A stretch of 64,000 bases of DNA from Escherichia phage Es2, in the sequence record OR515477.1. One strand, 5' to 3'. Both the position numbers and the translations under genes were made by a program. Shown here in pieces: positions 4,964 through 37,949 of this stretch. The first letter of the stretch is position 1, and each line of letters opens with the position of its first letter. Under the pieces are notes generated by a model that saw only the letters and a program-made list of their open reading frames with translations, did no database searches and was not told the origin of the DNA.

Positions 4964-5206
4964 TTACGATTCCTTGAGCAAAGAAGCAAGTTCAGCATAG
5001 ACTTTATCTAACTCAAAGCCTACGCGAAGAGACACGTTAGTTTTCCGTTGTTTAAGTAACCACTCGGATATGTTAGGGATGCCAGCTAGTCTATGCGGTA
5101 CCACCCTACATAGCTTTTCCGAAGTGTCGTAAACAGGAACTTTACGTTCTTTTACTGGAAACTTCCTTGTTTCCCATTTTTTATTCTTCACTGTCATTTC
5201 TAGCAC
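4964..5206 (-). CDS. hypothetical protein
   Basis: Six-frame ORF, 80 aa. Confidence 0.4.
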   Translation of the reverse strand: MLEMTVKNKKWETRKFPVKERKVPVYDTSEKLCRVVPHRLAGIPNISEWLLKQRKTNVSLRVGFELDKVYAELASLLKES

Positions 5207-7970
5207 CTAGCTCTGCCATTGCTTCATCATGCATATGTTTTTCCTCGTCAGTCATGAATTTATAAGGAATTGGCATACACTCGATTTTACAATAAGTTCT
5301 GTACCAGTCTACGATATTTTCAGTGTTCATATCTTTGCCAATACCCATCATACCAAGATACATTCTGGCATATTTTGGGTTAGCACTCTGACCTGTTTTA
5401 AGGAAGAAATCTTTCTTCTTACCTTTCAGAGCTTCTATGAATGGTTTGATAGTGACATTTGAACACTTCTTAATATCTTCCCAGAACATCTCATGCATCT
5501 TATGGAAGAACGCAGCTCGATCATTAGGTTTATCCTTGATATATTGTTCAACATGCTCAACTGTTACATCTTTAATAGACTCAAGATGATAATAGCGAAC
5601 AAGAAGTAGTTTAGCTTCATACGCATCTGCATGGCGTGGAGCACAATAGTCCGGAGTTGAGTGCAGAATAGCTTTGATTCGCTCTTCTGTATACTCTTTT
5701 CCTGCACCTTCGATAGTTCCCCAGCTTTCACTGAAAATATCAATAGTTGCTCCCTGATCAAGCAAGTAATAGCGTAAAGTACTAGTGTAGTTCCTAGATT
5801 CCAGCTCCCTACGACGTGCGTATAATTGCTGTGCTAACTCCAGCCAACCTTCATCAATGTTATATTGTTCAGAACCTGCTGAGAATCCACTCGTAGATTT
5901 ATCAATAAAATAATAAATGTTCTGAGCGCCACGGTCGCGCCTGATTGCTTGGAAACGCATGTTTGGCGCTTGATTACTGGTTCTAGTAATAACGAATACG
6001 TTATCAAAATAGTTAAAGTCAACGCCACTCGTTACGGATGGACTACATAATAAGCAATCAATTTGTTGATCAATTAGCTCATTAGTTGTGTAATCCAGAA
6101 TACGTCTAATATCTACATCAGACGTAGAATTTGAGTGAATTTCCTTAACTAACGCACCCGTATTACGACGCAGTGCCATACCCTTCTCATTCAGCTCATC
6201 AGGGCCACAGTCAGATACTAGAATAGACTTCTCCCCCATCTCTAGTGATGTTTGGAGTGCAACCCAAATACTAGATTCATCAGGAAACTCATAAGCATGG
6301 GCTTTTGACAGCATCTTACGGTGATGATTATAAAATGCGACCGGTTTATCAAACTCAATTAAAGAACCATATGCTTCAATTGTTTCTGCACTAATGTCCC
6401 CATCAGATAATATAATGATTTTTGCAGTTGCAAGAATATCCCGAAGAACCTGAATACATTCACGACGTTGCTTAACAACCGGGGCGAATAACAGGTCATT
6501 CATTACAGCATCACATTCATCGATAAAGATTGCATCTATTTGACCAATAAAACTCTTGAATTTATGCAAAGAGTGAATAGTTGTGGACATACGGTCAATA
6601 GCACCACGCTTAAAATTAAGCATATCTACAGACTTATCGTATTGTCCTGCACTAAATTTCTTAGCATTTGAGGATACCAGTGCTCGAGTATTGGTAATTG
6701 CTAAGAAATTACCTTTAATAACTCCCGAATCTAACCAACGCACAACCGCCGTAGTTTTACCTGTACCTAGACTTGCTTTTACAAAAGTCATATAGCCTTC
6801 TGGTGGTACAGTATTTAATTTCAAGAAGTTATCAGTCTCTAAAGAGTTAGTTTCTAGCTTTTTAAGTGGAATACCTTTTAAAACATCAGGTATATCACGT
6901 TTAGAATTATTAACAAACGCTTTCAGAGCCTGTTTTCTACCATTATTAAAGTAATCTTGAATATTACGACTATTATCTTTAGTTGCAATATATTCTGATA
7001 AGGCTGGGCGGATTTCTTTTTCTAGCCATGCAAAGTCAACACCATCCTCTAAAGCTCTGTGATAGAGTTTAGGTATGATACGTAGATACACTCCATCCTC
7101 AGCTTCTTCTAGTTCGCTGATAGTTTCCTCTACTTTATCAGAGGCAGCTTTTTTACCCTTAATTTGGTCGAGTAAAGAGTAGAACTCTTCTTTAAACTCA
7201 CCTCTAGTTGTTTCATAGTCAACCAGATTATTGGGTAAATTTACTTTAGAACCCTTAACAAATACCAGACGTGAAGCACCCTCCGCTTTAAACGGATCTA
7301 CTATACCATCAGTAAATAAAGGATCTGCAAAATAATGGAGCTGTACGGAAGAGTAATAAGCTAAGTCGGCAATATCAAAGCCATACTTTTGTCTACTACT
7401 TTCGTTGATAGATGTAAATAAGAATTTGATTTGACCCTGAGTTACTTTAACATTAGATTCTAGTATTAAGTGCATTCGGATACCTGGTTTTAGCCCAGCC
7501 GAAGACGATGCGTGAGCGATAAACCCTGCATCAAGAGGAAACATATCCTCACTAATACTATTTAACATTCTAATAATATGTCGAGCCATGCCAACAAGAT
7601 CAAACTTGTTACAACCACCTGTATCTACAATACCATCCACGTCCATTGCAATTATATGACTTGGATTAGATACATTAAAGTTGCCCTTCTTACGTCGCAC
7701 ATTATTTTTAGGTGCAAGACATCGACCTCGTACCGCAACGATATGAGGGTCAGACGTTAAACGTCTCATAAGAGGAAGCATTTCTACTAGGGTTTGAGGA
7801 TCAACTTCATCAATTACATCAAACTTGAAGGGCATTGAAGCTGGTTTACCTTCAGGATGCTTTGAGGAAAATCTTTTAGCAAAAAGATAGTCTTCTGCTT
7901 TAACTTCTCGCCAAATGCCTGTGGCTAAATCGCGATGAAATCCTGCATGACCTTGTAGGATTGAGAACAC
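5181..7970 (-). CDS. SF2-like helicase/ATPase (Walker A GTGKTT, DECD box)
   Basis: Walker A LGTGKTT and Walker B-like IFIDECDAV; track ORF begins at a TTG (8048) but a GTG about 7 nt after an AGGAG at ~7970 is the better start (position +/-1). Confidence 0.6.
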   Translation of the reverse strand: MFSILQGHAGFHRDLATGIWREVKAEDYLFAKRFSSKHPEGKPASMPFKFDVIDEVDPQTLVEMLPLMRRLTSDPHIVAVRGRCLAPKNNVRRKKGNFNVSNPSHIIAMDVDGIVDTGGCNKFDLVGMARHIIRMLNSISEDMFPLDAGFIAHASSSAGLKPGIRMHLILESNVKVTQGQIKFLFTSINESSRQKYGFDIADLAYYSSVQLHYFADPLFTDGIVDPFKAEGASRLVFVKGSKVNLPNNLVDYETTRGEFKEEFYSLLDQIKGKKAASDKVEETISELEEAEDGVYLRIIPKLYHRALEDGVDFAWLEKEIRPALSEYIATKDNSRNIQDYFNNGRKQALKAFVNNSKRDIPDVLKGIPLKKLETNSLETDNFLKLNTVPPEGYMTFVKASLGTGKTTAVVRWLDSGVIKGNFLAITNTRALVSSNAKKFSAGQYDKSVDMLNFKRGAIDRMSTTIHSLHKFKSFIGQIDAIFIDECDAVMNDLLFAPVVKQRRECIQVLRDILATAKIIILSDGDISAETIEAYGSLIEFDKPVAFYNHHRKMLSKAHAYEFPDESSIWVALQTSLEMGEKSILVSDCGPDELNEKGMALRRNTGALVKEIHSNSTSDVDIRRILDYTTNELIDQQIDCLLCSPSVTSGVDFNYFDNVFVITRTSNQAPNMRFQAIRRDRGAQNIYYFIDKSTSGFSAGSEQYNIDEGWLELAQQLYARRRELESRNYTSTLRYYLLDQGATIDIFSESWGTIEGAGKEYTEERIKAILHSTPDYCAPRHADAYEAKLLLVRYYHLESIKDVTVEHVEQYIKDKPNDRAAFFHKMHEMFWEDIKKCSNVTIKPFIEALKGKKKDFFLKTGQSANPKYARMYLGMMGIGKDMNTENIVDWYRTYCKIECMPIPYKFMTDEEKHMHDEAMAELGARNDSEE

Positions 7971-28580: not shown

Positions 28581-29099
28581 ATGAATGTTGATGAGCTAAC
28601 ACAGCACCTCTTATCTAGAGGATTTGATACAGATAAATATCATTGCTGGTTAAGTCCAGCAGGGTGGCTAACAGTCCCGTTGTATGATTTCTCTGGGATG
28701 TTGAGGGGCTATCAAACTTATAATCCTTCTGCTCCAAAAGGTCATGGTAAGTGTCCCTTTGAAGCTAAATATTTTACCTATTCTACTACCCAGTGTGTAT
28801 GGGGATTAGAAACTCTCAATGGAGATGAAAAAGTAGTATTGGTCGCTGAATCTGTATTTAAGGCAGTTGCGTTACATAATGCTGGTTATCCAGCCCTAGC
28901 AATGTTGGGTTCTTCTCCAGGAAAAGCGTTATTAAAGCAACTGAAATTATTACCTTTTAAATTGGTAGCTGTCGGGGATAACGATCCTGCGGGTGAAAAA
29001 TTTGCTAGAAAATTAAACGGCTTTGTTTCTCCTGTAGATGTGGATGAGATGTCTACCGAAAACTTGAAAAATTTTCTTGCTATGAAGCTAAATTTCTAA
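28581..29099 (+). CDS. hypothetical protein
   Basis: 172 aa ORF with AGGAG RBS. Confidence 0.5.
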   Translation: MNVDELTQHLLSRGFDTDKYHCWLSPAGWLTVPLYDFSGMLRGYQTYNPSAPKGHGKCPFEAKYFTYSTTQCVWGLETLNGDEKVVLVAESVFKAVALHNAGYPALAMLGSSPGKALLKQLKLLPFKLVAVGDNDPAGEKFARKLNGFVSPVDVDEMSTENLKNFLAMKLNF

Positions 29100-29215: not shown

Positions 29216-29290
29216 GGTTCTCAAGCTCATATGGTATGAGCACCCGGCTCATAACCGGAAGGTACGTAGGTTCGAATCCTCGGGGAGCCA
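29216..29290 (+). tRNA. tRNA-Met/Ile2 (anticodon CAT)
   Basis: Acceptor GGTTCTC/GGGAGCC, anticodon loop CTCATAA, TTCGAAT T-loop (T-stem imperfect), CCA encoded. Confidence 0.6.
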
Positions 29291-30705: not shown

Positions 30706-30812
30706 CATATTTGAATGAGAAGTAACTAAGCGAGTTGCTTTGAGGGGTAAAGTCAGGATAGCCTGAAATATTCCACCTTGAGTTTAACCGACTTACTTTT
30801 CATTCAAATATG
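30706..30812 (+). ncRNA. long hairpin element (20 bp stem enclosing 67 nt) at start of tRNA-Tyr transcript
   Basis: CATATTTGAATGAGAAGTAA (30706-30725) pairs with TTACTTTTCATTCAAATATG (30793-30812); lies between promoter -10 (30682-30687) and tRNA-Tyr. Confidence 0.4.
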
Positions 30813-30890
30813 GGGGGGTTGGCTCAGAGGCGACGGCGCCTGGCTGTAGACCGGGTATACCACGCGGAGGTTCGAGTCCTCCATCCCCCA
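30813..30890 (+). tRNA. tRNA-Tyr (anticodon GTA)
   Basis: Acceptor GGGGGGT/ATCCCCC, anticodon loop CTGTAGA, extended variable region, T-arm GGAGG-TTCGAGT-CCTCC, CCA encoded. Confidence 0.6.
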
Positions 30891-30911
30891 CCAAATTACT
30901 AAGGAAATAAT

Positions 30912-31457
30912 ATGCACAATAAGTTAATAAATGAACTTCAAAAAAGACAAATAATAACAAAAACTAAGGAGTTTGATATAACTCCGGATTTAATAGTTGA
31001 ATGTTCGAAAGTTTACTTAGAGTTAAGTAACACAAAGGCTAAGAAAGTCTCTTTAGGAGATCTTAGATATAATGTTAAACTATTGTGCCTATCCTTAATT
31101 AAATTTAAGCAAGAAAATAAACTTCTCATAAAAGAAGGTTTCATATATTTTATAGCAAATAAGGCGTGGCCCAATTATTTTAAGATTGGTATGTCAGCTA
31201 ACCCAAAGAAACGTCTGGCTAACTATCAAACATATAGTCCTTTTAGGGATTATACAATGCTACACTGGTCTTTCTGGTTTGACAGAAAGGAAGGTGAAAA
31301 ATTTGTACATAGTCTCTACCAAGACAGAGATCATGAATGGGTTAGGCTGCCACAAAGAAAACTAAATAAAATATTTGAGCAAATAAATAAACTTTCTGGC
31401 CTAGAACACTTGGTACAGAAAGTTAATAGAGAAATAGTTAATGCACCTATCGTCTAA
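30912..31457 (+). CDS. GIY-YIG-like (T5orf172-type) domain protein
   Basis: FIYFIANKAWPNYFKIGMSANPKKRLANYQTYSP resembles the GIY-YIG/T5orf172 fold; 3' end overlaps tRNA-Glu. Confidence 0.5.
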   Translation: MHNKLINELQKRQIITKTKEFDITPDLIVECSKVYLELSNTKAKKVSLGDLRYNVKLLCLSLIKFKQENKLLIKEGFIYFIANKAWPNYFKIGMSANPKKRLANYQTYSPFRDYTMLHWSFWFDRKEGEKFVHSLYQDRDHEWVRLPQRKLNKIFEQINKLSGLEHLVQKVNREIVNAPIV

Positions 31458-31514
31458 TGGTTAGGACATCAGGATTTCAATCTGAGAATCGGAGTTCAAT
31501 TCTCCGTGGGTGTA
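31443..31514 (+). tRNA. tRNA-Glu (anticodon TTC)
   Basis: Acceptor GCACCTA/TGGGTGT, anticodon loop ATTTCAA, T-arm CGGAG-TTCAATT-CTCCG, CCA encoded. Confidence 0.7.
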
Positions 31515-31523
31515 CCAAATTCT

Positions 31524-31599
31524 GCATTCCTAGAGTGTTACTGGACAGCATGTCGGTCTCCAAAACCGTACGGTCTAGGTTCGAGTCCTAGTAGGTTTG
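31524..31599 (+). tRNA. tRNA-like, possible tRNA-Trp (anticodon CCA)
   Basis: Good T-arm CTAGG-TTCGAGT-CCTAG and anticodon loop CTCCAAA, but acceptor stem pairing is poor; ends approximate. Confidence 0.35.
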
Positions 31600-31608
31600 C
31601 CAAAATTT

Positions 31609-31680
31609 GCACCTTTAGCTGAGATGGATTAGCGCTTGCCTGAAGAGCTTGAGAGGTTCGTTCGATTCGAACAGGGTGCA
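31609..31680 (+). tRNA. tRNA, possible tRNA-Phe (anticodon GAA)
   Basis: Acceptor GCACCTT/AGGGTGC, T-arm GTTCG-TTCGATT-CGAAC, CCA encoded; anticodon stem weak (loop CTGAAGA). Confidence 0.5.
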
Positions 31681-31685
31681 CCAAT

Positions 31686-31973
31686 TTGAGGGAGCTGCTG
31701 ATGCATCCTGAAAACTTCTTTATTTACTGCGCTGATAAGTCGCTGAAACGTAGAATTAACAAAGTCTATCATTATAGTGCTAGTCAACAGCCTTATGTAT
31801 ACGCTTTTGACGGTGATCACATTCCACTAGAACAATTATCTTGTGATTACATGATATTGAAGAACTTTGATGAGACGAAGATCTCGAGCGTTCATAATCG
31901 ACAGAATCCATTGACGTGGAAATATAAGAAGAAAAAGAAAGGCATCAAATTCTTAAAAAATGTAGTTGCTTAG
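31686..31973 (+). CDS. hypothetical protein
   Basis: 95 aa ORF; a promoter overlaps its 3' end. Confidence 0.45.
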   Translation: MRELLMHPENFFIYCADKSLKRRINKVYHYSASQQPYVYAFDGDHIPLEQLSCDYMILKNFDETKISSVHNRQNPLTWKYKKKKKGIKFLKNVVA

Positions 31974-31994
31974 TTTCCAAAAGTTCTGTATAAT
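31966..31994 (+). promoter_or_regulatory. early-type sigma70 promoter
   Basis: TTGCTT, 17 bp, TGTATAAT. Confidence 0.6.
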
Positions 31995-32005
31995 AATTAC
32001 ATAAA

Positions 32006-32248
32006 TTGAACTGGAGAAGCAACATGACAGAACAAGAATTGAATGAACGTAAGCTGGTAATGCTTCGCTTACTAAATATTTTCTCTGGTATGGACGGTGG
32101 AATTGACTTTGTTCATCTACGTTCTTTCGTAGAAGAAGCTGAAGGCGAATCTATCACTAAAATCCTTAAACACATGGGATTACTTTTAGATGCTGCTAAT
32201 GTGGCTACTGAATATAAAATAGAAGATCTACCGGAGCGTGTTAAATGA
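32006..32248 (+). CDS. hypothetical protein
   Basis: 80 aa ORF after promoter 31966-31994. Confidence 0.5.
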   Translation: MNWRSNMTEQELNERKLVMLRLLNIFSGMDGGIDFVHLRSFVEEAEGESITKILKHMGLLLDAANVATEYKIEDLPERVK

Positions 32249-32436
32249 AACGATTAGTTAGATTTAAGTGTTGTGGTTCCGAGCACATTTTCACACATCT
32301 TCGTGAATTTAAAATGTGTGATTGTGGTAAATCAGGCTATGACTCAGGAGATGGGTTCTACACCCGTACTCTAGGGAACTTCAATGATCTAGAATTTGAA
32401 GATCTCGAAAAACAAGATAAACCGACCGTTGGCTGA
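32245..32436 (+). CDS. small Cys-rich protein
   Basis: 63 aa, CCGSEH...CDCG motif; 3' end overlaps tRNA-Cys. Confidence 0.45.
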   Translation: MKRLVRFKCCGSEHIFTHLREFKMCDCGKSGYDSGDGFYTRTLGNFNDLEFEDLEKQDKPTVG

Positions 32437-32495
32437 ATGGCTTAGGCGAAGGATTGCAAATCCTTTTTATGTGAGTTCAAATCTCATGCGGTCGT
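32423..32495 (+). tRNA. tRNA-Cys (anticodon GCA)
   Basis: Acceptor CGACCGT/GCGGTCG, anticodon stem-loop AAGGA-TTGCAAA-TCCTT, T-arm GTGAG-TTCAAAT-CTCAT, CCA encoded. Confidence 0.7.
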
Positions 32496-32501
32496 CCAAT
32501 T

Positions 32502-32640
32502 TGCTGAAAGAATTGTTAAATCAATTCAGGCACGCGTAGGAACACTGTCTCCGTAATTGAAAGATGAGGCACGGTTTGGAGAGGTATGCCGCTACACGCT
32601 ACGGTGCTAACTCCGTCTAGGTGAAAATCCTAGTCAGCAA
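32502..32640 (+). ncRNA. long tRNA-like element (~139 nt)
   Basis: 7 bp acceptor-like pairing TTGCTGA/TCAGCAA, D-arm-like hairpin GAATTG-TTAAAT-CAATTC, T-arm-like CTAGG-TGAAAAT-CCTAG; no ORF. Confidence 0.35.
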
Positions 32641-32650
32641 TATAAATTTA

Positions 32651-32730
32651 GGGTCGTTAGCCAAGCGGTTTGGCGGTGGACTGTTAATCCATGTCGAAAG
32701 ACAACGTAGGTTCGAATCCTACACGGCCCG
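32651..32730 (+). tRNA. tRNA-Asn (anticodon GTT)
   Basis: Acceptor GGGTCGT/ACGGCCC, anticodon loop CTGTTAA, extended variable region, T-arm GTAGG-TTCGAAT-CCTAC, CCA encoded. Confidence 0.65.
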
Positions 32731-32835
32731 CCAAATTCTGTGTAGAGTTAAGTAAACCGGTAGCCAACCAGCTATCATTGCTGATATCGAATTCAGCCAC
32801 AGATACCATTTTCATTAATAACTGAGGAAACAAGC

Positions 32836-33021
32836 ATGTCCAAGAATGTAATTGCACAGCTAGAAGTTCATCGTGATAACACAGCTAATAACATTAAGTG
32901 CCGACAAAAAGATATTGAAGCTCGAAAGGCTGATCTTTTAATGAGTATTCGAGAGCTTAATGTACGGAAAGAGTTTCTTAAAGAACTTAATGCAGCTATT
33001 GAAAAACTCAAAGTTGAGTAA
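32836..33021 (+). CDS. hypothetical protein
   Basis: 61 aa ORF, coiled-coil-like. Confidence 0.4.
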   Translation: MSKNVIAQLEVHRDNTANNIKCRQKDIEARKADLLMSIRELNVRKEFLKELNAAIEKLKVE

Positions 33022-33030
33022 ATAAATTAT

Positions 33031-33104
33031 GCGACCGGGGCTGGCTTGGTAATGGTACTCCCCTGTCACGGGAGGGAATGTGGGTTCAAATCCCATCGGT
33101 CGCG
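33031..33104 (+). tRNA. tRNA-Asp (anticodon GTC)
   Basis: Acceptor GCGACCG/CGGTCGC, anticodon stem-loop CTCCC-CTGTCAC-GGGAG, T-arm GTGGG-TTCAAAT-CCCAT, CCA encoded. Confidence 0.75.
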
Positions 33105-33132
33105 CCAAATTAATTTAGTATGAGAATATACT

Positions 33133-33480
33133 ATGCGTAATGCTAAAGAAGAGTTGTTACTTGCCTTAAAAAATACTAATTCTGAAGTTAAATGTATTAA
33201 AATAGAATTCGGGTATTATGGGGATAAAAAAGTTTGGGTATTACCTTTAGGTTATACAGAAAAAGATATTGAGGATTTTCTTAATAATCTAGACTTTAAG
33301 TACGATTCTGGGTATGGTGGGCAATTACTTTATGGTAATGTATGGTTTGCCGACGGAACTTGGCTAGAACGTGGGGAATACGATGGTGCTGAGTGGTGGG
33401 AGTACAAAGCTACCCCGGAAATTCCAGAGGAATGCCGAACAATTAATGGTGAAGTAGATAATACTTTACTATTAAACTAA
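33133..33480 (+). CDS. hypothetical protein
   Basis: 115 aa ORF. Confidence 0.5.
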   Translation: MRNAKEELLLALKNTNSEVKCIKIEFGYYGDKKVWVLPLGYTEKDIEDFLNNLDFKYDSGYGGQLLYGNVWFADGTWLERGEYDGAEWWEYKATPEIPEECRTINGEVDNTLLLN

Positions 33481-33602
33481 AAGAATTTCAGTGCAGAACA
33501 CGGAGCTAGCAATTCGGAAGTGCTGACTCATGATAAGCTGCCTATGTACTTGCTAAGCGGTCGTGTCCAAGACTCGGACTCTTGCACTGAAAACAATCAA
33601 AC

Positions 33603-33723
33603 ATTCTAGCGTGGTTGATGGGGAAACCAGCTTGGCTAGGGCAGAAGCTCGTTCGATTCGAGTGAAAGAATGGTTCTCGTAAGTCCGCACAAGTGATAGC
33701 AGGTTCGAGTCCTGTCTAGAATG
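33603..33723 (+). ncRNA. long tRNA-like element (~121 nt)
   Basis: Perfect 7 bp acceptor pairing ATTCTAG/CTAGAAT, T-arm GCAGG-TTCGAGT-CCTGT, internal second T-arm-like GCTCG-TTCGATT-CGAGT; too long for a canonical tRNA. Confidence 0.4.
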
Positions 33724-33731
33724 ACACTATA

Positions 33732-33859
33732 AAGTTTACTTATTATGTAGGTTCCGATAGATCGGCGGGTCTATTCTGGCATTTAAGAGAAGTCTCGCAA
33801 ACTTCTTTGTCAGCCGTGGGGTTGGTAGCCTCCAGGTGGCCTACACAATAAGTAAATTT
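33732..33859 (+). ncRNA. long hairpin element (20 bp stem enclosing ~88 nt)
   Basis: AAGTTTACTTATTATGTAGG (33732-33751) pairs with CCTACACAATAAGTAAATTT (33840-33859); sub-hairpins inside; no ORF. Confidence 0.4.
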
Positions 33860-33872
33860 ATTAAAAATTCAT

Positions 33873-33901
33873 TTGCTATTTTTCTTAATTATCTGTATAA
33901 T
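33873..33901 (+). promoter_or_regulatory. early-type sigma70 promoter
   Basis: AAAAATTCATTTGCTA, 17 bp, TGTATAAT. Confidence 0.6.
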
Positions 33902-33933
33902 ATATTTTATAAAGTGAAGAGAAGGAAAGCAAA

Positions 33934-34092
33934 ATGAAACACAAGATAGCCCAAGTTTTTATGGCATTATGGTGTATGCCAATAGCTATAACAGCATTTA
34001 ATCTAGATACTTTTACTATAGAAGAAAAATGTATCGGATTAGTTAGCGGCTTTAGTATGCTTGGCTTATCTTTGTTGTGGTTGAAGAAATAA
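33934..34092 (+). CDS. small hydrophobic protein
   Basis: 52 aa ORF MKHKIAQVFMALWCMPIAITAF... after promoter 33873-33901; below track cutoff. Confidence 0.4.
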   Translation: MKHKIAQVFMALWCMPIAITAFNLDTFTIEEKCIGLVSGFSMLGLSLLWLKK

Positions 34093-34096
34093 TATT

Positions 34097-34171
34097 CTCC
34101 GTGTAGCTCAGTTTGGCCAGAGCGTTTCGTTTGGGGCGATAGGGTCGGGGGTTCAAATCCTCCCACGGAGA
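34097..34171 (+). tRNA. tRNA-Pro (anticodon TGG)
   Basis: Acceptor CTCCGTG/CACGGAG, D-arm GCTC..GAGC, anticodon loop TTTGGGG, T-arm GGGGG-TTCAAAT-CCTCC, CCA encoded. Confidence 0.7.
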
Positions 34172-34180
34172 CCAAACAAT

Positions 34181-34255
34181 TGCGGGTTAGATCTCTGGTA
34201 GAGATCGCTAGTCTCATAAGCTAGAAAGAGGTAGGTTCGATTCCTGCACCCGCTT
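34181..34255 (+). tRNA. tRNA-Met/Ile2 (anticodon CAT)
   Basis: Acceptor TGCGGGT/ACCCGCT (1-72 mismatch), anticodon stem-loop CTAGT-CTCATAA-GCTAG, T-arm GTAGG-TTCGATT-CCTGC, CCA encoded. Confidence 0.65.
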
Positions 34256-34278
34256 CCATTTTAATAGAGGATTTCGAA

Positions 34279-34446
34279 ATGAAAGTATTTCGATTAGTAG
34301 TAAGTGACAAACGGTTAGGTAAGAATACATCAAAATCCCTACTCGCTCATTACGGTAAAAATTGGGATGAAGTAATGGCAGAGTTTAGTACTAATCACCC
34401 TTACTTGAAAGTTCACTCTATTAAAGAAGTATATAATGGTTACTAA
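34279..34446 (+). CDS. hypothetical small protein
   Basis: 55 aa ORF with GAGGA RBS between tRNAs; below track cutoff. Confidence 0.4.
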   Translation: MKVFRLVVSDKRLGKNTSKSLLAHYGKNWDEVMAEFSTNHPYLKVHSIKEVYNGY

Positions 34447-34447
34447 T

Positions 34448-34523
34448 AGATCGCTAGCTCAATAGGTTTAGTAGCATCCGACTTTTAATCGGAAGGTTCT
34501 GGGTTCGAGTCCCAGGCGATCTA
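34448..34523 (+). tRNA. tRNA-Lys (anticodon TTT)
   Basis: Acceptor AGATCGC/GCGATCT, anticodon stem-loop TCCGA-CTTTTAA-TCGGA, T-arm CTGGG-TTCGAGT-CCCAG, CCA encoded. Confidence 0.75.
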
Positions 34524-34530
34524 CCAAATT

Positions 34531-34601
34531 GCTCGGTTAGTTTAATGGGAGAACCCCGTCTTTACACGGCGGTTGAGATAGTTCAATTCTATCACCGAGT
34601 A
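34531..34601 (+). tRNA. tRNA-Val (anticodon TAC)
   Basis: Acceptor GCTCGGT/ACCGAGT, anticodon loop TTTACAC, T-arm GATAG-TTCAATT-CTATC, CCA encoded. Confidence 0.7.
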
Positions 34602-34623
34602 CCAATTAACTCAAAATAAGGAA

Positions 34624-34983
34624 TTGCAAATGCAATTATCAAGCAAGATTCAAGGTTATTTCGGTCATGTAACAATGGAGTTCGCTATCTCTAAAGGTTG
34701 GGACTTCGAACAAGATTTAGCTGAGTTCTACAAAGATATTGATCTGAACGTACCGTACATGGGACTTTCTACTGGTCAGGAGATCACAGAAGCCGATGTA
34801 TTCAAGGCAAGTCAAGGTGAGGTAACACCTAGTTTTGCCGAGTTCTGGTTAGGCATTACGTTAAAAGAAGATGCACCAGATAGTGGTGTACTAATGTCTA
34901 GTATGCACTCTGGAAGTTCCGATTACCTTTTCATTAGCGATGTTAAGGAAATACAAGAAGTCTGCAAAAATGTACTTGCTTGA
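34624..34983 (+). CDS. hypothetical protein
   Basis: 119 aa ORF with AAGGA RBS. Confidence 0.5.
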   Translation: MQMQLSSKIQGYFGHVTMEFAISKGWDFEQDLAEFYKDIDLNVPYMGLSTGQEITEADVFKASQGEVTPSFAEFWLGITLKEDAPDSGVLMSSMHSGSSDYLFISDVKEIQEVCKNVLA

Positions 34984-35004
34984 TGCTTAATTTCTTGTTA
35001 TAAT
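34976..35004 (+). promoter_or_regulatory. early-type sigma70 promoter
   Basis: TTGCTT, 17 bp, TATAAT; followed by hairpin GATGAGGA-GAAA-TCCTCATC. Confidence 0.55.
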
Positions 35005-35242
35005 ATTTATATAAATTGATGAGGAGAAATCCTCATCATAGTTCACTAAGGTATTAGCTCGACCTAGGACTGGCTGCCAAAAAGCACGATCCCTACGATT
35101 CGGGAAAAGTTCTAGATTGGTCCACTAGATTCAGCGGCAACTGAATAGTGTATTGGGTTTGCGAGATGACGTAGTTCCTTCCGCTCTAAGCGAAGGTGCT
35201 GTAGTTACGCCGAGCTAATAGCCTTAGTAAACTAAAGAATTT

Positions 35243-35318
35243 GGGGAATGGGTCTGCATGGAGTGGACACCTCGCTTGCACCGAGGACATCAGAACGGTT
35301 CGATTCCGTTATTCTCCA
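35243..35318 (+). tRNA. tRNA-Ala (anticodon TGC)
   Basis: Acceptor GGGGAAT/ATTCTCC, anticodon stem-loop CCTCG-CTTGCAC-CGAGG, T-arm AACGG-TTCGATT-CCGTT, CCA encoded. Confidence 0.7.
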
Positions 35319-35326
35319 CCAAATAC

Positions 35327-35400
35327 GCGTGATTGATGGAATGGGCATACATACCGTCCTTAGAAGTCGGGTTTTGAGGGTTCGAATCCCTTGTCACGCA
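35327..35400 (+). tRNA. tRNA with anticodon TAG (Leu-decoding; class I architecture)
   Basis: Acceptor GCGTGAT/GTCACGC, anticodon loop CTTAGAA, short variable arm, T-arm GAGGG-TTCGAAT-CCCTT, CCA encoded. Confidence 0.55.
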
Positions 35401-35515
35401 CCAAATTTGATGGTCAGAGTAAATTAAACCTACTATCTCGGTTGAGCTGTTTTAATGGGTTCGAATCCCAGCGGGGCGTAACTGCCTGGTGTGATAGAGG
35501 CATCATCTTATTATT

Positions 35516-35603
35516 GGAAGAGCAAATCGAATTGGCGACGAAAACCGCTTGGAAAGTGGCTGACTGGTAAAACGGCTTGAGAGTTCAAATCTCTCCTCTT
35601 CCG
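35516..35603 (+). tRNA. tRNA-Ser (anticodon GGA)
   Basis: Acceptor GGAAGAG/CTCTTCC, anticodon loop TTGGAAA, 18 nt variable arm, T-arm GAGAG-TTCAAAT-CTCTC, CCA encoded. Confidence 0.7.
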
Positions 35604-35618
35604 CCAAACAATTTATAT

Positions 35619-35710
35619 GGTAGGTCAATCCAATGGCTGGCGCTGGACTCCGACTTGAAATCGGTTGATCGTAGTGATACGGTGTAAGGGTTCGATCCCC
35701 TTACCTACCT
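35619..35710 (+). tRNA. tRNA-Ser (anticodon TGA)
   Basis: Acceptor GGTAGGT/ACCTACC, anticodon loop CTTGAAA, 20 nt variable arm, T-arm AAGGG-TTCGATC-CCCTT, CCA encoded. Confidence 0.7.
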
Positions 35711-35716
35711 CCAAAT

Positions 35717-35850
35717 CTTGAAGTATGCCGGAATCGGTAGACGGGGCTGCCTAAAAGGTTTATAGGGAACATCCACTCCCTGCAACATACCTCATAAAGC
35801 GGCTGAGATAAATGGTCTATCTCGTGAAGGTTCAAGTCCTTCTGCTTCTT
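35717..35850 (+). ncRNA. long tRNA-like element (~134 nt)
   Basis: Acceptor-like pairing TGAAGTA/TGCTTCT (6 of 7), T-arm GAAGG-TTCAAGT-CCTTC, internal D-arm-like hairpins; no CCA, no ORF. Confidence 0.35.
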
Positions 35851-35964
35851 GATACATCTATGGCTCAAAGTGTAACGGTGCTATTTGATGCTCTTGGTAA
35901 GACTTCCCCGACATGCGTTCGGGAGTAAGCTGCTAAGACTAGAGTAGAAGAGTTTCTGAGAGCC

Positions 35965-36084
35965 GCCACAATTGAAAATTCGTACTCGTCTTGAGCTGCG
36001 CGCAATAGGAGATAACTTGATTAGTATTCTAGAACATGCTAATTGAGGAAGGTTTCGCTAACCCTGCGAGTTTTCAATTGTGGC
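35965..36084 (+). ncRNA. long hairpin element (18 bp stem enclosing ~85 nt) abutting tRNA-His
   Basis: GCCACAATTGAAAATTCG (35965-35982) pairs with CGAGTTTTCAATTGTGGC (36067-36084); the 3' arm overlaps the tRNA-His acceptor. Confidence 0.4.
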
Positions 36085-36153
36085 TATATCATAATTGGTT
36101 AATGATCCTGATTGTGAATCAGGCCTATGTGGATTCGAATTCCACTAGCCACC
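36080..36153 (+). tRNA. tRNA-His (anticodon GTG)
   Basis: Acceptor GTGGCTA/TAGCCAC, D-arm TCAT..ATGA, anticodon stem-loop CCTGA-TTGTGAA-TCAGG, T-arm GTGGA-TTCGAAT-TCCAC, CCA encoded. Confidence 0.7.
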
Positions 36154-36180
36154 CCAAATTAACTTAAATAGGAAATAAAT

Positions 36181-36387
36181 ATGGCTGATTTCTGCAAACA
36201 ATGCTCCATTGATATGTGGGGTAAAGATACTGGTGATCTTTCTGGTTTGATTACAGAAGCTGAAGTTAAAGAAGGCTACGGTGCTGCTGTGATCTGCGAA
36301 GGATGCGGAGTTATTCGAGTAGATCATGAAGGCAAACGTTTAGAAGATCCAAAAAGTATTAAGAAGAAGGTTAGCCAAGTAGGTTAA
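36181..36387 (+). CDS. small zinc-ribbon protein
   Basis: CKQCS...CEGCG motifs, 68 aa; 3' end overlaps tRNA-Gln. Confidence 0.5.
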   Translation: MADFCKQCSIDMWGKDTGDLSGLITEAEVKEGYGAAVICEGCGVIRVDHEGKRLEDPKSIKKKVSQVG

Positions 36388-36437
36388 GGCTGGGGTCTCT
36401 GAAATCCTGATCAGTGGTTCGAATCCACTACCTTCTG
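36365..36437 (+). tRNA. tRNA-Gln (anticodon CTG)
   Basis: Acceptor AGAAGGT/ACCTTCT, anticodon loop CTCTGAA, T-arm AGTGG-TTCGAAT-CCACT, CCA encoded. Confidence 0.6.
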
Positions 36438-36446
36438 CCAAACAAT

Positions 36447-36521
36447 TGGGGATTAGCTTAGCTTGGCCTAAAGCTTCGGCCTTTGAAGTCGAGATCATTG
36501 GTTCAAATCCAATATCCCCTG
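36447..36521 (+). tRNA. tRNA-Gln (anticodon TTG)
   Basis: Acceptor TGGGGAT/ATCCCCT, D-arm GCTT..AAGC, anticodon stem-loop TCGGC-CTTTGAA-GTCGA, T-arm ATTGG-TTCAAAT-CCAAT, CCA encoded. Confidence 0.65.
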
Positions 36522-36534
36522 CCAGCTAAATTAA

Positions 36535-36607
36535 TGCGTGATTAGTTCAGTGGCTAGAATAACTGGCTTCCAACCAGTAGACACGAGTTCGACTCTCGTA
36601 TCCCGCA
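36535..36607 (+). tRNA. tRNA-Gly (anticodon TCC)
   Basis: Acceptor GCGTGAT/ATCCCGC, anticodon stem-loop ACTGG-CTTCCAA-CCAGT, T-arm ACGAG-TTCGACT-CTCGT, CCA encoded. Confidence 0.7.
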
Positions 36608-36624
36608 CCAAATAAGGAAACGTT

Positions 36625-37737: not shown

Positions 37738-37836
37738 CCAAATTTAGGAATTAAGACTATGCGTCCAGGAAAGTTTAAAAAAGCTAATTGGTCTAAAGAG
37801 TATAAAGAATACTTACTTAGTCTAGTAAAACATAAT

Positions 37837-37909
37837 AGTTAGTTGGCAGAGTGGTTATGCACCTCCTTCATACGGAGCGACTACAGTGGTTCAAATCCAC
37901 TACTAACTA
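37837..37909 (+). tRNA. tRNA-Met/Ile2 (anticodon CAT)
   Basis: Acceptor AGTTAGT/ACTAACT, anticodon loop TTCATAC, T-arm AGTGG-TTCAAAT-CCACT, CCA encoded. Confidence 0.65.
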
Positions 37910-37949
37910 CCATTAAAAGAGCTAGAGATAGCTAACTTTAGGAGCAGCT

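What the first reader, a model, noticed from the sequence alone, without database searches (positions are those of the whole stretch)
31443..36437. tRNA genes overlapping the 3' ends of protein-coding ORFs
tRNA-Glu starts 15 nt before the stop of ORF 30912-31457, tRNA-Cys 14 nt before the stop of 32245-32436, and tRNA-Gln(CTG) 23 nt before the stop of 36181-36387. Processing of the tRNA would cleave the mRNA 3' end, and the overlap constrains the C-terminal residues. This suggests coupled tRNA maturation and mRNA decay, or that some of these small ORFs are not expressed.
Basis: seen in the sequence. Interest (0 to 1): 0.4.

Follow-up and report, generated by a model that had tools for sequence, protein, structure and literature searches.

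The report
Phage genes running into tRNA genes
In this T5-like phage, three (really four) protein genes have no stop codon of their own and end a few bases inside the next tRNA gene; the overlaps are real but are a long-annotated feature of T5-type tRNA clusters, and two of the three trace to selfish nuclease genes.

Summary
ARAGORN and Rfam agree on the tRNA 5' ends, and the three ORFs end 15, 14 and 23 nt inside tRNA-Glu, tRNA-Cys and tRNA-Gln(CTG). A fourth overlap was missed: a 27-aa ORF runs 6 nt into tRNA-Met.

The window is the tRNA cluster of a T5-like phage (Tequintavirus). The same kind of overlap is annotated in T5, BF23, FFH1 and DaisyDussoix.

- ORF 30912-31457 is a T5orf172 (GIY-YIG-type) homing-endonuclease-like gene. 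It sits in what is an 8-nt tRNA-Tyr/tRNA-Glu spacer in a relative and takes its stop from the tRNA D-loop.
- ORF 36181-36387 is a conserved small gene fused in frame to the last codons of the HNH endonuclease gene hegD (F-TflII). It looks like a deletion scar and keeps hegD's 23-nt overlap.
- ORF 32245-32436 is BF23 "ORF trn 2.7*", annotated there with the same 14-nt overlap.

ORF2 and the ORF3 core are under purifying selection (dN/dS about 0.1), and ORF1 has a Pfam nuclease domain. "Not expressed" is therefore unlikely.

The idea that tRNA processing cuts off the stop codon and lowers expression was published in 2008 for T4 segB and the T5 F-Tfl genes. It remains untested. Verdict: ordinary, already known, with modest added detail.

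The parts
30813..30893 (+). tRNA-Tyr(GTA), short allele. It is the left border of the ORF1 insertion.
   Evidence: The same allele lies 8 nt from tRNA-Glu in IrmaTschudi, which is the empty site.
30912..31457 (+). ORF1, 181 aa, a T5orf172/GIY-YIG-clan homing-endonuclease-like gene. It has no stop codon of its own and reads into tRNA-Glu.
   Evidence: Pfam T5orf172 2.5e-9 and MUG113 1.8e-9. It is 50% identical to T5.069. It is absent from AKFV33, IME178, T5, FFH1 and others. 26 records share it.
31443..31517 (+). tRNA-Glu(TTC). Its first 15 nt encode A-P-I-V-stop of ORF1, and the TAA lies in the D-loop.
   Evidence: (56.9 bits).
32024..32248 (+). Upstream partner ORF. The ORF listing gives 32006-32248 from a TTG; the ATG is at 32024. 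Its TGA overlaps the ATG of ORF2 (ATGA), which fits translational coupling.
   Evidence: This ORF and ORF2 are deleted together in FFH1, DaisyDussoix and L6jm through an AACAAGA microhomology.
32245..32436 (+). ORF2, 63 aa, a small Cys-rich (zinc-ribbon-like) protein equal to BF23 'ORF trn 2.7*'. It ends at a TGA inside tRNA-Cys.
   Evidence: BF23 annotates the same 192-nt ORF with a 14-nt overlap, an RBS and promoter P14b. dN/dS is 0.12-0.13. DUF7695 scores 21.5 bits, below its cut-off of 25. 92 records share the junction.
32423..32498 (+). tRNA-Cys(GCA), with sequence identical to the T5 and BF23 allele. Its first 14 nt encode (P)-T-V-G-stop of ORF2.
   Evidence: (48.5 bits).
36181..36387 (+). 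ORF3, 68 aa. It is a chimera of a T5.062 homologue (about 56 codons, CxxC...CxxC) and the last 12-14 codons of hegD (F-TflII).
   Evidence: Alignments. dN/dS of the core is 0.08-0.26. FFH1 annotates the same ORF (ORF60) with a 23-nt overlap.
36344..36351 (+). AAGATCCA, an 8-nt microhomology at the fusion point. It is present both in the T5.062-type gene of L6jm and near the 3' end of hegD.
   Evidence: In BLAST the L6jm-like segment ends at 36351 and the DaisyDussoix-like segment starts at 36344.
36352..36387 (+). Remnant of the 3' end of the HNH homing endonuclease gene hegD (K-S-I-K-K-K-V-S-Q-V-G-stop), including its original overlap with the tRNA.
   Evidence: The T5 and DaisyDussoix hegD C-terminus is ...GKDPKSIKKKVSQVG*, with the same 23-nt overlap.
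36365..36440 (+). tRNA-Gln(CTG), the allele that travels with hegD. The TAA of ORF3 lies in its D-loop.
   Evidence: 57.0 bits. Its 5' end and D-arm match T5 and DaisyDussoix, with substitutions elsewhere; it is unlike the AKFV33, IME178, BF23 and L6jm allele. The T5 copy scores only 39.1 bits and is flagged as a pseudogene.
37759..37842 (+). A 27-aa ORF in the position of T5.057 / BF23 ORF trn 2.20 (homology not tested) that overlaps the next tRNA by 6 nt.
   Evidence: The equivalent overlaps are annotated in T5 and BF23.
37837..37912 (+). tRNA-Met(CAT), overlapped by the 27-aa ORF.

Best explanation
The window is the early-region tRNA cluster of a T5-like phage. It is a set of very compact transcription units in which tRNAs, small ORFs and free-standing homing endonuclease genes (HEGs) follow one another with almost no spacer.

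Modules are gained and lost with end points within a few bases of the tRNA 5' ends. An ORF left without its own stop codon runs into the tRNA and ends at the first in-frame stop there.

- ORF1 is a T5orf172 HEG-like gene lying in what is an 8-nt tRNA-Tyr/tRNA-Glu spacer in a relative.
- ORF3 is the scar of a microhomology deletion that removed hegD (F-TflII) but kept its tRNA-overlapping 3' end, fused in frame to the upstream gene.
- ORF2 is a conserved small protein whose tRNA-proximal end is a recombination junction.

Inferred consequence: a full mRNA with a stop codon and a mature tRNA cannot both come from the same transcript molecule. RNase P cleavage would give a stop-less mRNA, which should lower protein yield through ribosome stalling, tmRNA tagging and decay. 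A terminating ribosome would in turn transiently unfold the acceptor and D arms. This is tolerable, or even useful, for a nuclease gene and for proteins with variable C-terminal tails.

Shown here: the anatomy, the homologies, the empty and filled sites, the mosaic breakpoints and the purifying selection. Inferred: co-transcription and every step involving RNA processing or expression.
For: Identity of the window and tRNA boundaries:
- The window is a Tequintavirus; the best match is IME178 at 97.7%.
- tRNA 5' ends agree between two methods.

The same kind of overlap is annotated in curated records:
- T5: T5.069/tRNA-Asn 24 nt, hegC/tRNA-Ser 14 nt, hegD/tRNA-Gln 23 nt, T5.057/tRNA-Met 6 nt.
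- BF23: ORF trn 2.7*/tRNA-Cys 14 nt, ORF trn 2.8/tRNA-Asn 24 nt, ORF trn 2.12.1/tRNA-Lys 10 nt.
- FFH1 and DaisyDussoix carry equivalent overlaps.

ORF1:
- It has a T5orf172 domain and is 50% identical to T5.069.
- The empty site is CCA-AAATTAAT-GCACC in IrmaTschudi. The filled site has a 549-nt spacer.

ORF3:
- The junction GAAGATCC|AAAAAG equals the T5.062-type gene joined to the hegD 3' end.
- The flanks match L6jm at 97.8% and DaisyDussoix at 98.0%, with an 8-nt overlap between the two matches.

Broader pattern:
- All three overlaps lie at homology breakpoints against the closest relative, IME178.
- dN/dS is about 0.1 for ORF2 and the ORF3 core, while ORF3 tails vary between phages.
- No terminator-like site on the + strand lies at the three ORF/tRNA junctions.
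- Of 77 IMG/VR loci with T5orf172 relatives, 37 lie in tRNA clusters. In 25 a tRNA starts within 10 nt of the stop, and 20 overlap. The tRNA partners are Glu, Asn, Lys, Leu, Tyr and Thr among the 20 overlapping loci, plus Asp, Pro and Gln among those that abut.

Literature:
- The processing-coupled down-regulation idea was published for T4 segB and T5 F-TflI/II (PMC2330249).
- SegB targets tRNA genes and co-converts flanking tRNA genes.
- T5orf172 genes are regarded as HEGs that are abundant in T5-like phages (PMC10448857).
Against: - No expression, RNA-end or protein data were available, so the processing and decay part is inference only.
- Nuclease activity and the target of ORF1 are untested.
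- The direction of the hegD event is inferred from parsimony. Loss by deletion, or recombination between a hegD-bearing and a hegD-free genome, are both possible.
- ORF2 is not a HEG, so HEG traffic does not explain every overlap.
- Non-HEG ORFs in the cluster are packed just as tightly (gaps +1 to +21). The HEG link is therefore not exclusive.
- The IMG/VR loci include near-duplicates, so the counts are not independent events.
Confidence: 0.8

Rival explanations
1. The overlap is a selected regulatory device rather than a by-product. Under this view, competition between translation termination inside the tRNA 5' end and RNase P cleavage sets either the HEG or small-protein dose or the output of that tRNA.
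For: - The overlap recurs in several unrelated gene families and with many tRNA partners.
- The hegD overlap survived deletion of the HEG itself.
- The junctions are stable across 26 and 92 phage records.
- The idea has been proposed in the literature (PMC2330249).
Against: - Close relatives do well with the same ORFs ending before the tRNA. AKFV33 orf068 and orf062, IME178 and L6jm are examples.
- Overlap lengths and reading frames differ between paralogues (10, 15 and 24 nt), as expected from chance use of whichever stop comes first.
- There are no functional data.
Confidence: 0.25
2. The ORFs, or at least their overlapping ends, are annotation artefacts or are not translated. On this view the region is effectively only tRNA precursor and spacer.
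For: - The ORFs are small (63 and 68 aa). ORF3 has no Pfam hit and ORF2 has only a sub-threshold one.
- ORF2 and its upstream partner are dispensable, being deleted in FFH1, DaisyDussoix and L6jm.
- Spurious ORFs do occur inside tRNAs, for example 31457-31591.
Against: - dN/dS is 0.12-0.13 for ORF2, even at dS of about 2.8 against AKFV33, and 0.08-0.26 for the ORF3 core.
- The Cys pairs are conserved.
- Shine-Dalgarno motifs are present, and ORF2 has an ATGA coupling with the upstream ORF.
- ORF1 has a Pfam domain above threshold and conserved GIY-YIG-type motif positions.
Confidence: 0.07
3. The tRNA boundaries are wrong, or the overlapped tRNAs are non-functional copies carried along with HEGs. 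In that case there would be no real conflict between the mRNA and a functional tRNA.
For: - The T5 annotators flag the hegD-linked tRNA-Gln(CUG) as a pseudogene, and it scores only 39.1 bits.
- The tRNA-Cys allele starts with an unusual C1-G72 pair.
- The T5 record notes that several of these tRNAs cannot be converted into suppressors.
Against: - In the window the three tRNAs score 56.9, 48.5 and 57.0 bits over the full model, with intact acceptor stems, encoded CCA ends and matching ARAGORN calls.
- Shifting the 5' end would break the acceptor stem pairing that can be read from the sequence.
Confidence: 0.08

Closest known systems
T5 and BF23 tRNA-region HEGs and ORFs that overlap tRNA genes. 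These are hegC/F-TflI with tRNA-Ser, hegD/F-TflII with tRNA-Gln(CUG), T5.069 (ORF172) with tRNA-Asn, and BF23 ORF trn 2.7* with tRNA-Cys (GenBank AY543070, NC_042564; Akulenko et al. 2004, as cited in PMC2330249 and PMC10644984).
   Same: - The genomic region, gene order and orientation are the same.
- ORF2 is the same gene and the same 14-nt overlap as BF23 ORF trn 2.7*.
- ORF3 keeps hegD's exact 23-nt overlap and its C-terminal residues.
- ORF1 is a 50%-identical paralogue of T5.069.
   Different: - ORF1 sits at a different site (Tyr/Glu spacer rather than Cys/Asn) with a different overlap (15 nt rather than 24 nt).
- The window has no intact hegD, only its last codons fused to the upstream gene.
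- Only FFH1, Elw and WP85 share this fusion.
T4 SegB, a GIY-YIG free-standing homing endonuclease in the T4 tRNA cluster (Brok-Volchanskaya et al. 2008, PMC2330249).
   Same: - It is a nuclease gene lying between tRNA genes and ending next to the following tRNA. segB ends 5 nt before tRNA-Arg.
- It targets conserved tRNA-gene sequence and co-converts neighbouring tRNA genes.
- The authors propose that tRNA processing removes the stop codon and limits expression.
   Different: - BLASTP finds no similarity to ORF1 (E = 2.5).
- segB abuts the tRNA rather than overlapping it.
- SegB's activity and homing were shown by experiment; nothing has been shown for ORF1.
T5orf172-family HEGs as described in ICP1 and other phages (Barth, Dunham and Seed 2023, PMC10448857).
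   Same: - ORF1 has the same Pfam domain.
- ORF1 shows the same presence/absence polymorphism and sits at a boundary of genetic exchange.
   Different: That paper does not mention overlap with, or preference for, tRNA genes: a term search gave 0 hits for 'overlap', and 'tRNA' appears only in other contexts. Here 20 of the 37 family members found in tRNA clusters overlap a tRNA.
The mitochondrial 'tRNA punctuation' model, in which tRNA excision defines mRNA ends, including mRNAs left without complete stop codons (my own knowledge; no paper was read for this).
   Same: ORF1 is flanked on both sides by tRNAs. tRNA excision would define both ends of its mRNA and leave it without a stop codon.
   Different: In mitochondria, polyadenylation completes the stop codon. 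No such repair is known in E. coli phage transcripts, where a stop-less mRNA is expected to be handled by tmRNA. The resemblance is an analogy only.

Membership tests
tRNA (Rfam RF00005), for the three overlapped genes | A full-length match to the covariance model above the gathering score, with a paired acceptor stem that defines the 5' end. | tested here: met
   One search gives 56.9, 48.5 and 57.0 bits (gathering score 29) over model positions 1-71, starting at 31443, 32423 and 36365. ARAGORN gives identical starts.
T5orf172 / GIY-YIG-superfamily free-standing homing endonuclease gene (ORF1) | A T5orf172 (GIY-YIG clan) nuclease domain. | tested here: met
   Pfam PF10544 at E 2.5e-9, 38 bits (cut-off 20), and PF13455 at 38.4 bits (cut-off 22.3). 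G76, F77, Y79, K91, G93, R101, E129, E142 and W143 are invariant across six paralogues.
T5orf172 / GIY-YIG-superfamily free-standing homing endonuclease gene (ORF1) | Presence/absence polymorphism at one locus among close relatives, with a recognisable empty site. | tested here: met
   ORF1 is absent from AKFV33, T5, IME178, FFH1, DaisyDussoix and L6jm. The IrmaTschudi empty site has closely similar Tyr and Glu alleles (a few substitutions) 8 nt apart. ORF1 is present in 26 of the 98 matching records.
T5orf172 / GIY-YIG-superfamily free-standing homing endonuclease gene (ORF1) | Site-specific cleavage of the HEG-less allele and biased inheritance in mixed infection. | not testable with these tools
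   This needs purified protein and phage crosses.
HNH homing endonuclease F-TflII (hegD), for ORF3 | NUMOD4 plus HNH_3 domains in a protein of about 193 aa. | tested here: not met
   T5 hegD has both domains. ORF3 has no Pfam hit and shares only the last 12-14 codons with hegD. It is a remnant, not a member.
DUF7695 (Pfam PF24749), for ORF2 | A score at or above the Pfam gathering threshold. | tested here: inconclusive
   The score is 21.5 bits against a cut-off of 25, E = 2e-4.
tRNA-processing-coupled limitation of HEG expression (proposed for T4 segB and T5 F-TflI/II) | The ORF lies on the same strand, immediately 5' of or overlapping a tRNA, with no terminator or promoter between them. | tested here: met
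   Overlaps are 6-23 nt. No + strand terminator-like site lies at the junctions. Co-transcription itself is inferred.
tRNA-processing-coupled limitation of HEG expression (proposed for T4 segB and T5 F-TflI/II) | RNase P cleavage removes the stop codon in vivo and lowers protein yield. | not testable with these tools
   In the literature read here this is only a proposal (PMC2330249).

The most novel reading that the evidence does not exclude
A subfamily of T5orf172 homing endonuclease genes may be specialised for phage tRNA clusters in both Demerecviridae and T4-like phages. These genes would insert into the few-nucleotide spacers 5' of tRNA genes as stop-less ORFs. They would take their stop codon from conserved tRNA positions such as U8-A9-G10 or the D-loop. 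They would be kept at a low, non-toxic dose because RNase P maturation of the downstream tRNA turns their mRNA into a stop-less mRNA that tmRNA clears. Deletion scars such as ORF3 would pass this built-in throttle on to neighbouring non-nuclease genes.
Probability: 0.3. Interest if true: 0.5.

Novelty: already known. Interest (0 to 1): 0.25.

Why it matters
The finding explains an odd-looking annotation feature of T5-like phages, which are widely used in phage therapy and biocontrol. The explanation is ordinary: homing-endonuclease traffic and extreme compaction in the tRNA cluster. The overlaps should not be "corrected" by annotators.

If the processing-coupled throttle were shown by experiment, it would be a simple bacterial counterpart of tRNA punctuation. 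It would also show how selfish nuclease genes keep their dose low. The tRNA region matters in its own right, because phage tRNAs counter host tRNA-targeting defences (cited in PMC10644984). Nuclease-driven swapping of tRNA alleles could therefore change which defences a phage escapes.

Tried and rejected
- **Wrong tRNA boundaries.** Rejected, because two methods agree and the acceptor stems pair.
- **Sequencing or assembly error.** Rejected, because the identical junctions occur in 26, 92 and 4 independent phage records.
- **Statistical excess of overlaps.** I found no meaningful null model. The overlaps are the tail of a continuum of gaps from -23 to +21 nt. In 58% of tRNA/frame combinations a read-in stops within 25 nt. 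I make no claim of enrichment.
- **Strict linkage of each HEG to a special downstream tRNA allele.** This holds in the seven relatives compared for hegD/tRNA-Gln and T5.069/tRNA-Asn. It fails in general. GEC_vB_N7 has a T5orf172 paralogue in front of the common tRNA-Glu allele. IrmaTschudi has the window's tRNA-Glu allele without the HEG.
- **Sequence homology of ORF1 to T4 SegB.** None was found by BLASTP.
- **Akulenko et al. 2004, on F-Tfl cleavage sites.** The paper is not held in the library, so the targets of the T5 enzymes could not be checked.
- **Literature search for RNase P, stop codon and HEG in phages.** It returned only mitochondrial papers.
- **The 152-nt tRNA-Cys/tRNA-Asn spacer as a structured RNA.** The fold z-score is only -1.8 and Rfam finds no family. 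This stays unresolved.
- **First IMG/VR scan with ORF1 alone.** It gave only 10 loci. The profile-based scan was needed.

Full report
**1. What the window is**

The 8 kb around the finding matches 589 phage records, all T5-like (Demerecviridae). The best match is Escherichia phage IME178, at 97.7% identity over 84% of the query. ARAGORN finds 23 tRNA genes between 27428 and 37912, all on the + strand. This is the early-region tRNA cluster of a Tequintavirus.

**2.

Rfam's tRNA model places the 5' ends at 31443, 32423 and 36365. These are the same positions as ARAGORN gives, over full model positions 1-71, at 56.9, 48.5 and 57.0 bits against a gathering score of 29. Reading the sequence directly gives:

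| ORF | Stop codon | Overlap | tRNA |
|---|---|---|---|
| 30912-31457 | TAA 31455-31457 | 15 nt | tRNA-Glu |
| 32245-32436 | TGA 32434-32436 | 14 nt | tRNA-Cys |
| 36181-36387 | TAA 36385-36387 | 23 nt | tRNA-Gln(CTG) |

Each stop lies in the D-arm/D-loop segment of the tRNA. A scripted scan recovers these three.

The ORF-to-tRNA gaps in the window run -23, -15, -14, -6, +1, +1, +4, +9, +10 and +21. The overlaps are therefore the end of a continuum of very tight packing. In 40 of 69 tRNA/frame combinations, an ORF reading in would meet a stop within 25 nt, often the TAG formed by U8-A9-G10 or a TAA/TGA in the D-loop. Short overlaps are what one expects once an ORF has no stop of its own. I claim no statistical excess.

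**3. The phenomenon is already annotated**

The curated T5 record (AY543070) shows four overlaps:
- T5.069 with tRNA-Asn, 24 nt.
- hegC (F-TflI) with tRNA-Ser, 14 nt.
- hegD (F-TflII) with tRNA-Gln(CUG), 23 nt.
- T5.057 with tRNA-Met, 6 nt.

The BF23 tRNA-region record shows ORF trn 2.7* with tRNA-Cys (14 nt), ORF trn 2.8 with tRNA-Asn (24 nt), ORF trn 2.12.1 with tRNA-Lys (10 nt) and ORF trn 2.20 with tRNA-Met (6 nt). That record also annotates ribosome-binding sites and promoters. FFH1 and DaisyDussoix show the same kind of overlap.

**4. ORF1 (30912-31457)**

- It has the Pfam T5orf172 and MUG113 domains of the GIY-YIG clan, above their cut-offs.
- It is 50% identical to T5.069, a 172-aa T5 ORF carrying the same T5orf172 domain.
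- It is absent from AKFV33, T5, BF23, IME178, FFH1, DaisyDussoix and L6jm, where tRNA-Tyr and tRNA-Glu are adjacent.
- IrmaTschudi carries closely similar tRNA-Tyr and tRNA-Glu alleles (a few substitutions) separated by only AAATTAAT. The window has 549 nt there. That stretch holds a Shine-Dalgarno motif, the ATG and 177 codons that run straight into the tRNA...GTT AAT|GCA CCT ATC GTC TAA.

ORF1 is therefore a minimal homing-endonuclease-like insertion with no stop codon of its own. 26 records share this arrangement.

Paralogues behave the same way:

| Phage | tRNA partner | Relation of stop to tRNA |
|---|---|---|
| GEC_vB_N7 | tRNA-Glu | 10-nt overlap |
| IrmaTschudi, BF23 | tRNA-Lys | 10-nt overlap |
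| Klebsiella phage K7_rec11 | tRNA-Asn | 10-nt overlap |
| Kosakonia phage 305 (T4-like) | tRNA-Asn | abuts, 1 nt between |

In an IMG/VR scan with a family profile, 37 of 77 loci lie in tRNA clusters. In 25 a tRNA starts within 10 nt of the stop, and 20 overlap it. These loci include near-duplicates, so the counts are descriptive only.

**5. ORF3 (36181-36387)**

- Its first 56 or so codons are the conserved small CxxC...CxxC protein T5.062. dN/dS is 0.08-0.26 against seven relatives, and the C-terminal tail differs between phages.
- Its last residues, DPKSIKKKVSQVG, are the C-terminus of hegD (F-TflII). They are in hegD's reading frame and keep hegD's 23-nt overlap with a tRNA-Gln(CTG) allele of the type that follows hegD in T5 and DaisyDussoix.
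- The junction lies in AAGATCCA (36344-36351). This 8-mer is present both in the T5.062-type gene of L6jm and near the 3' end of hegD.
- The left flank matches L6jm at 97.8% up to 36351. The right flank matches DaisyDussoix at 98.0% from 36344.

The simplest reading is a microhomology deletion, or a recombination, that removed about 580 bp of hegD and left its tRNA-overlapping end fused in frame. Only FFH1, Elw and WP85 share this junction. FFH1 annotates it as ORF60.

**6. ORF2 (32245-32436)**

- It is the same gene as BF23 ORF trn 2.7*. The two proteins differ at four of 63 residues, and the overlap is the same.
- dN/dS is 0.13 against BF23 and 0.12 against the divergent AKFV33 orf068, and the Cys pattern is conserved.
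- Its ATG overlaps the TGA of the upstream ORF (ATGA), with GGAG upstream.
- 92 records share the junction.

The tRNA-Cys 5' end is a recombination hot spot:
- T5 and IME178 join a different ORF end there, with its own TAA.
- AKFV33 has another tRNA-Cys allele, and orf068 stops 2 nt before it.
- FFH1, DaisyDussoix and L6jm have deleted ORF2 and its upstream partner through an AACAAGA microhomology. This leaves a 10-codon ORF (MTEQDKPTVG*) that still ends in the tRNA.

ORF2 is not a nuclease gene.

**7. The overlaps sit at mosaic boundaries**

Against IME178, homology breaks at three places:
- 30712-31598, which covers the tRNA-Tyr allele, ORF1, the tRNA-Glu allele and most of tRNA-Trp.
- 32417-32421, the tRNA-Cys 5' end.
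- 36347-36613, which covers the hegD remnant, both tRNA-Gln genes and tRNA-Gly.

This fits what is known for T4 SegB. SegB recognises a conserved tRNA motif, cuts inside tRNA genes of relatives that lack segB, and co-converts about 1.25 kb of neighbouring tRNA genes (PMC2330249). T5orf172 genes are regarded as homing endonuclease genes that mark boundaries of genetic exchange (PMC10448857).

**8. How it probably works**

No terminator-like site on the + strand lies at the ORF/tRNA junctions, and T5-type promoters lie upstream of the units. Co-transcription is therefore likely, but it is inferred.

If RNase P cuts at tRNA position +1, the upstream mRNA loses its stop codon. On established E. 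coli biology, such mRNAs stall ribosomes and are cleared through tmRNA. This step rests on my own knowledge and was not tested. Conversely, a ribosome terminating 6-23 nt inside the tRNA must unfold the acceptor and D arms.

This reasoning was published for T4 segB and for T5 F-TflI and F-TflII (PMC2330249). In T4, segB ends 5 nt before tRNA-Arg. I consider a by-product origin with a tolerated, possibly useful, dampening of expression more likely than a purpose-built regulator. Close relatives carry the same ORFs with stops upstream of the tRNA, and the overlap frames and lengths vary between paralogues.

**9. Verdict**

- The first interpretation (processing-coupled decay) is plausible, already published and untested.
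- The second interpretation (ORFs not expressed) is contradicted by the selection and domain evidence.
- The feature is an already-known property of T5-like tRNA clusters.
- What this analysis adds is the empty/filled-site anatomy of ORF1, the hegD-scar origin of ORF3, and the family-wide association of T5orf172 genes with tRNA 5' ends.

Noticed in passing
A 27-aa ORF in the position of T5.057 / BF23 ORF trn 2.20 (homology not tested) ends 6 nt inside tRNA-Met at 37837.
   Followed up: partly
window 29216-29290 and 35243-35321: The two tRNA finders disagree at two sites. Rfam finds a tRNA at 29216-29290 (40.3 bits) that ARAGORN misses; IME178 and FFH1 annotate tRNA-Met(CAT) at that position. 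ARAGORN's tRNA-Ala at 35243-35321 does not reach the Rfam gathering score.
   Followed up: no
L023 (Salmonella phage PK8) 1218-1739: A chimeric T5orf172 gene. Its 5' part is about 84% identical in DNA to ORF1. Its 3' end and downstream tRNA-Asn are of the T5.069 type (...SLALIG*). This implies recombination between the two paralogous nuclease genes, which deleted tRNA-Glu, Trp, Phe and Cys and the ORFs between them.
   Followed up: partly
L003 (IME178) 5154-5441, against window 32245-32436: In IME178 the ORF2 homologue is 95 aa long. About 110 bp carrying the 3' part of a T5.070-type ORF sit between ORF2 and tRNA-Cys, which gives an ORF2::T5.070' fusion with its own stop codon.
   Followed up: partly
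L005, L006 and L007 upstream of tRNA-Cys, against window 32024-32436: FFH1, DaisyDussoix and L6jm lack both ORF 32024-32248 and ORF2, through a deletion at the repeat AACAAGA. The remaining 10-codon ORF (MTEQDKPTVG*) still ends inside tRNA-Cys.
   Followed up: partly
window 32499-32650: A 152-nt non-coding spacer lies between tRNA-Cys and tRNA-Asn. The BLAST alignments to IME178, FFH1 and L6jm span it. T5 has the T5.069 nuclease gene at this position, and AKFV33 has only 6 nt. The fold z-score is -1.8 and there is no Rfam family, so it is unclear whether this is a stable RNA or a remnant.
   Followed up: partly
window 32423: The tRNA-Cys allele, which is identical in T5 and BF23, starts with a C1-G72 pair instead of the usual G1-C72. 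The T5 record notes that this tRNA cannot be converted into an amber suppressor.
   Followed up: no
window 28581-29099: A 172-aa ORF with a Toprim-like domain (Toprim_2, 25.3 bits) ends 21 nt before tRNA-Ser. BF23 calls its apparent counterpart (ORF trn 2.1, same length and position; not compared here) a putative primase-related protein.
   Followed up: no
L002 (T5) 7022-7097, against window 36365-36440: The hegD-linked tRNA-Gln(CUG) scores 39.1 bits in T5, where it is flagged as a pseudogene. It scores 57.0 bits in the window. This HEG-associated allele therefore seems to be decaying in some lineages but not in this one.
   Followed up: partly
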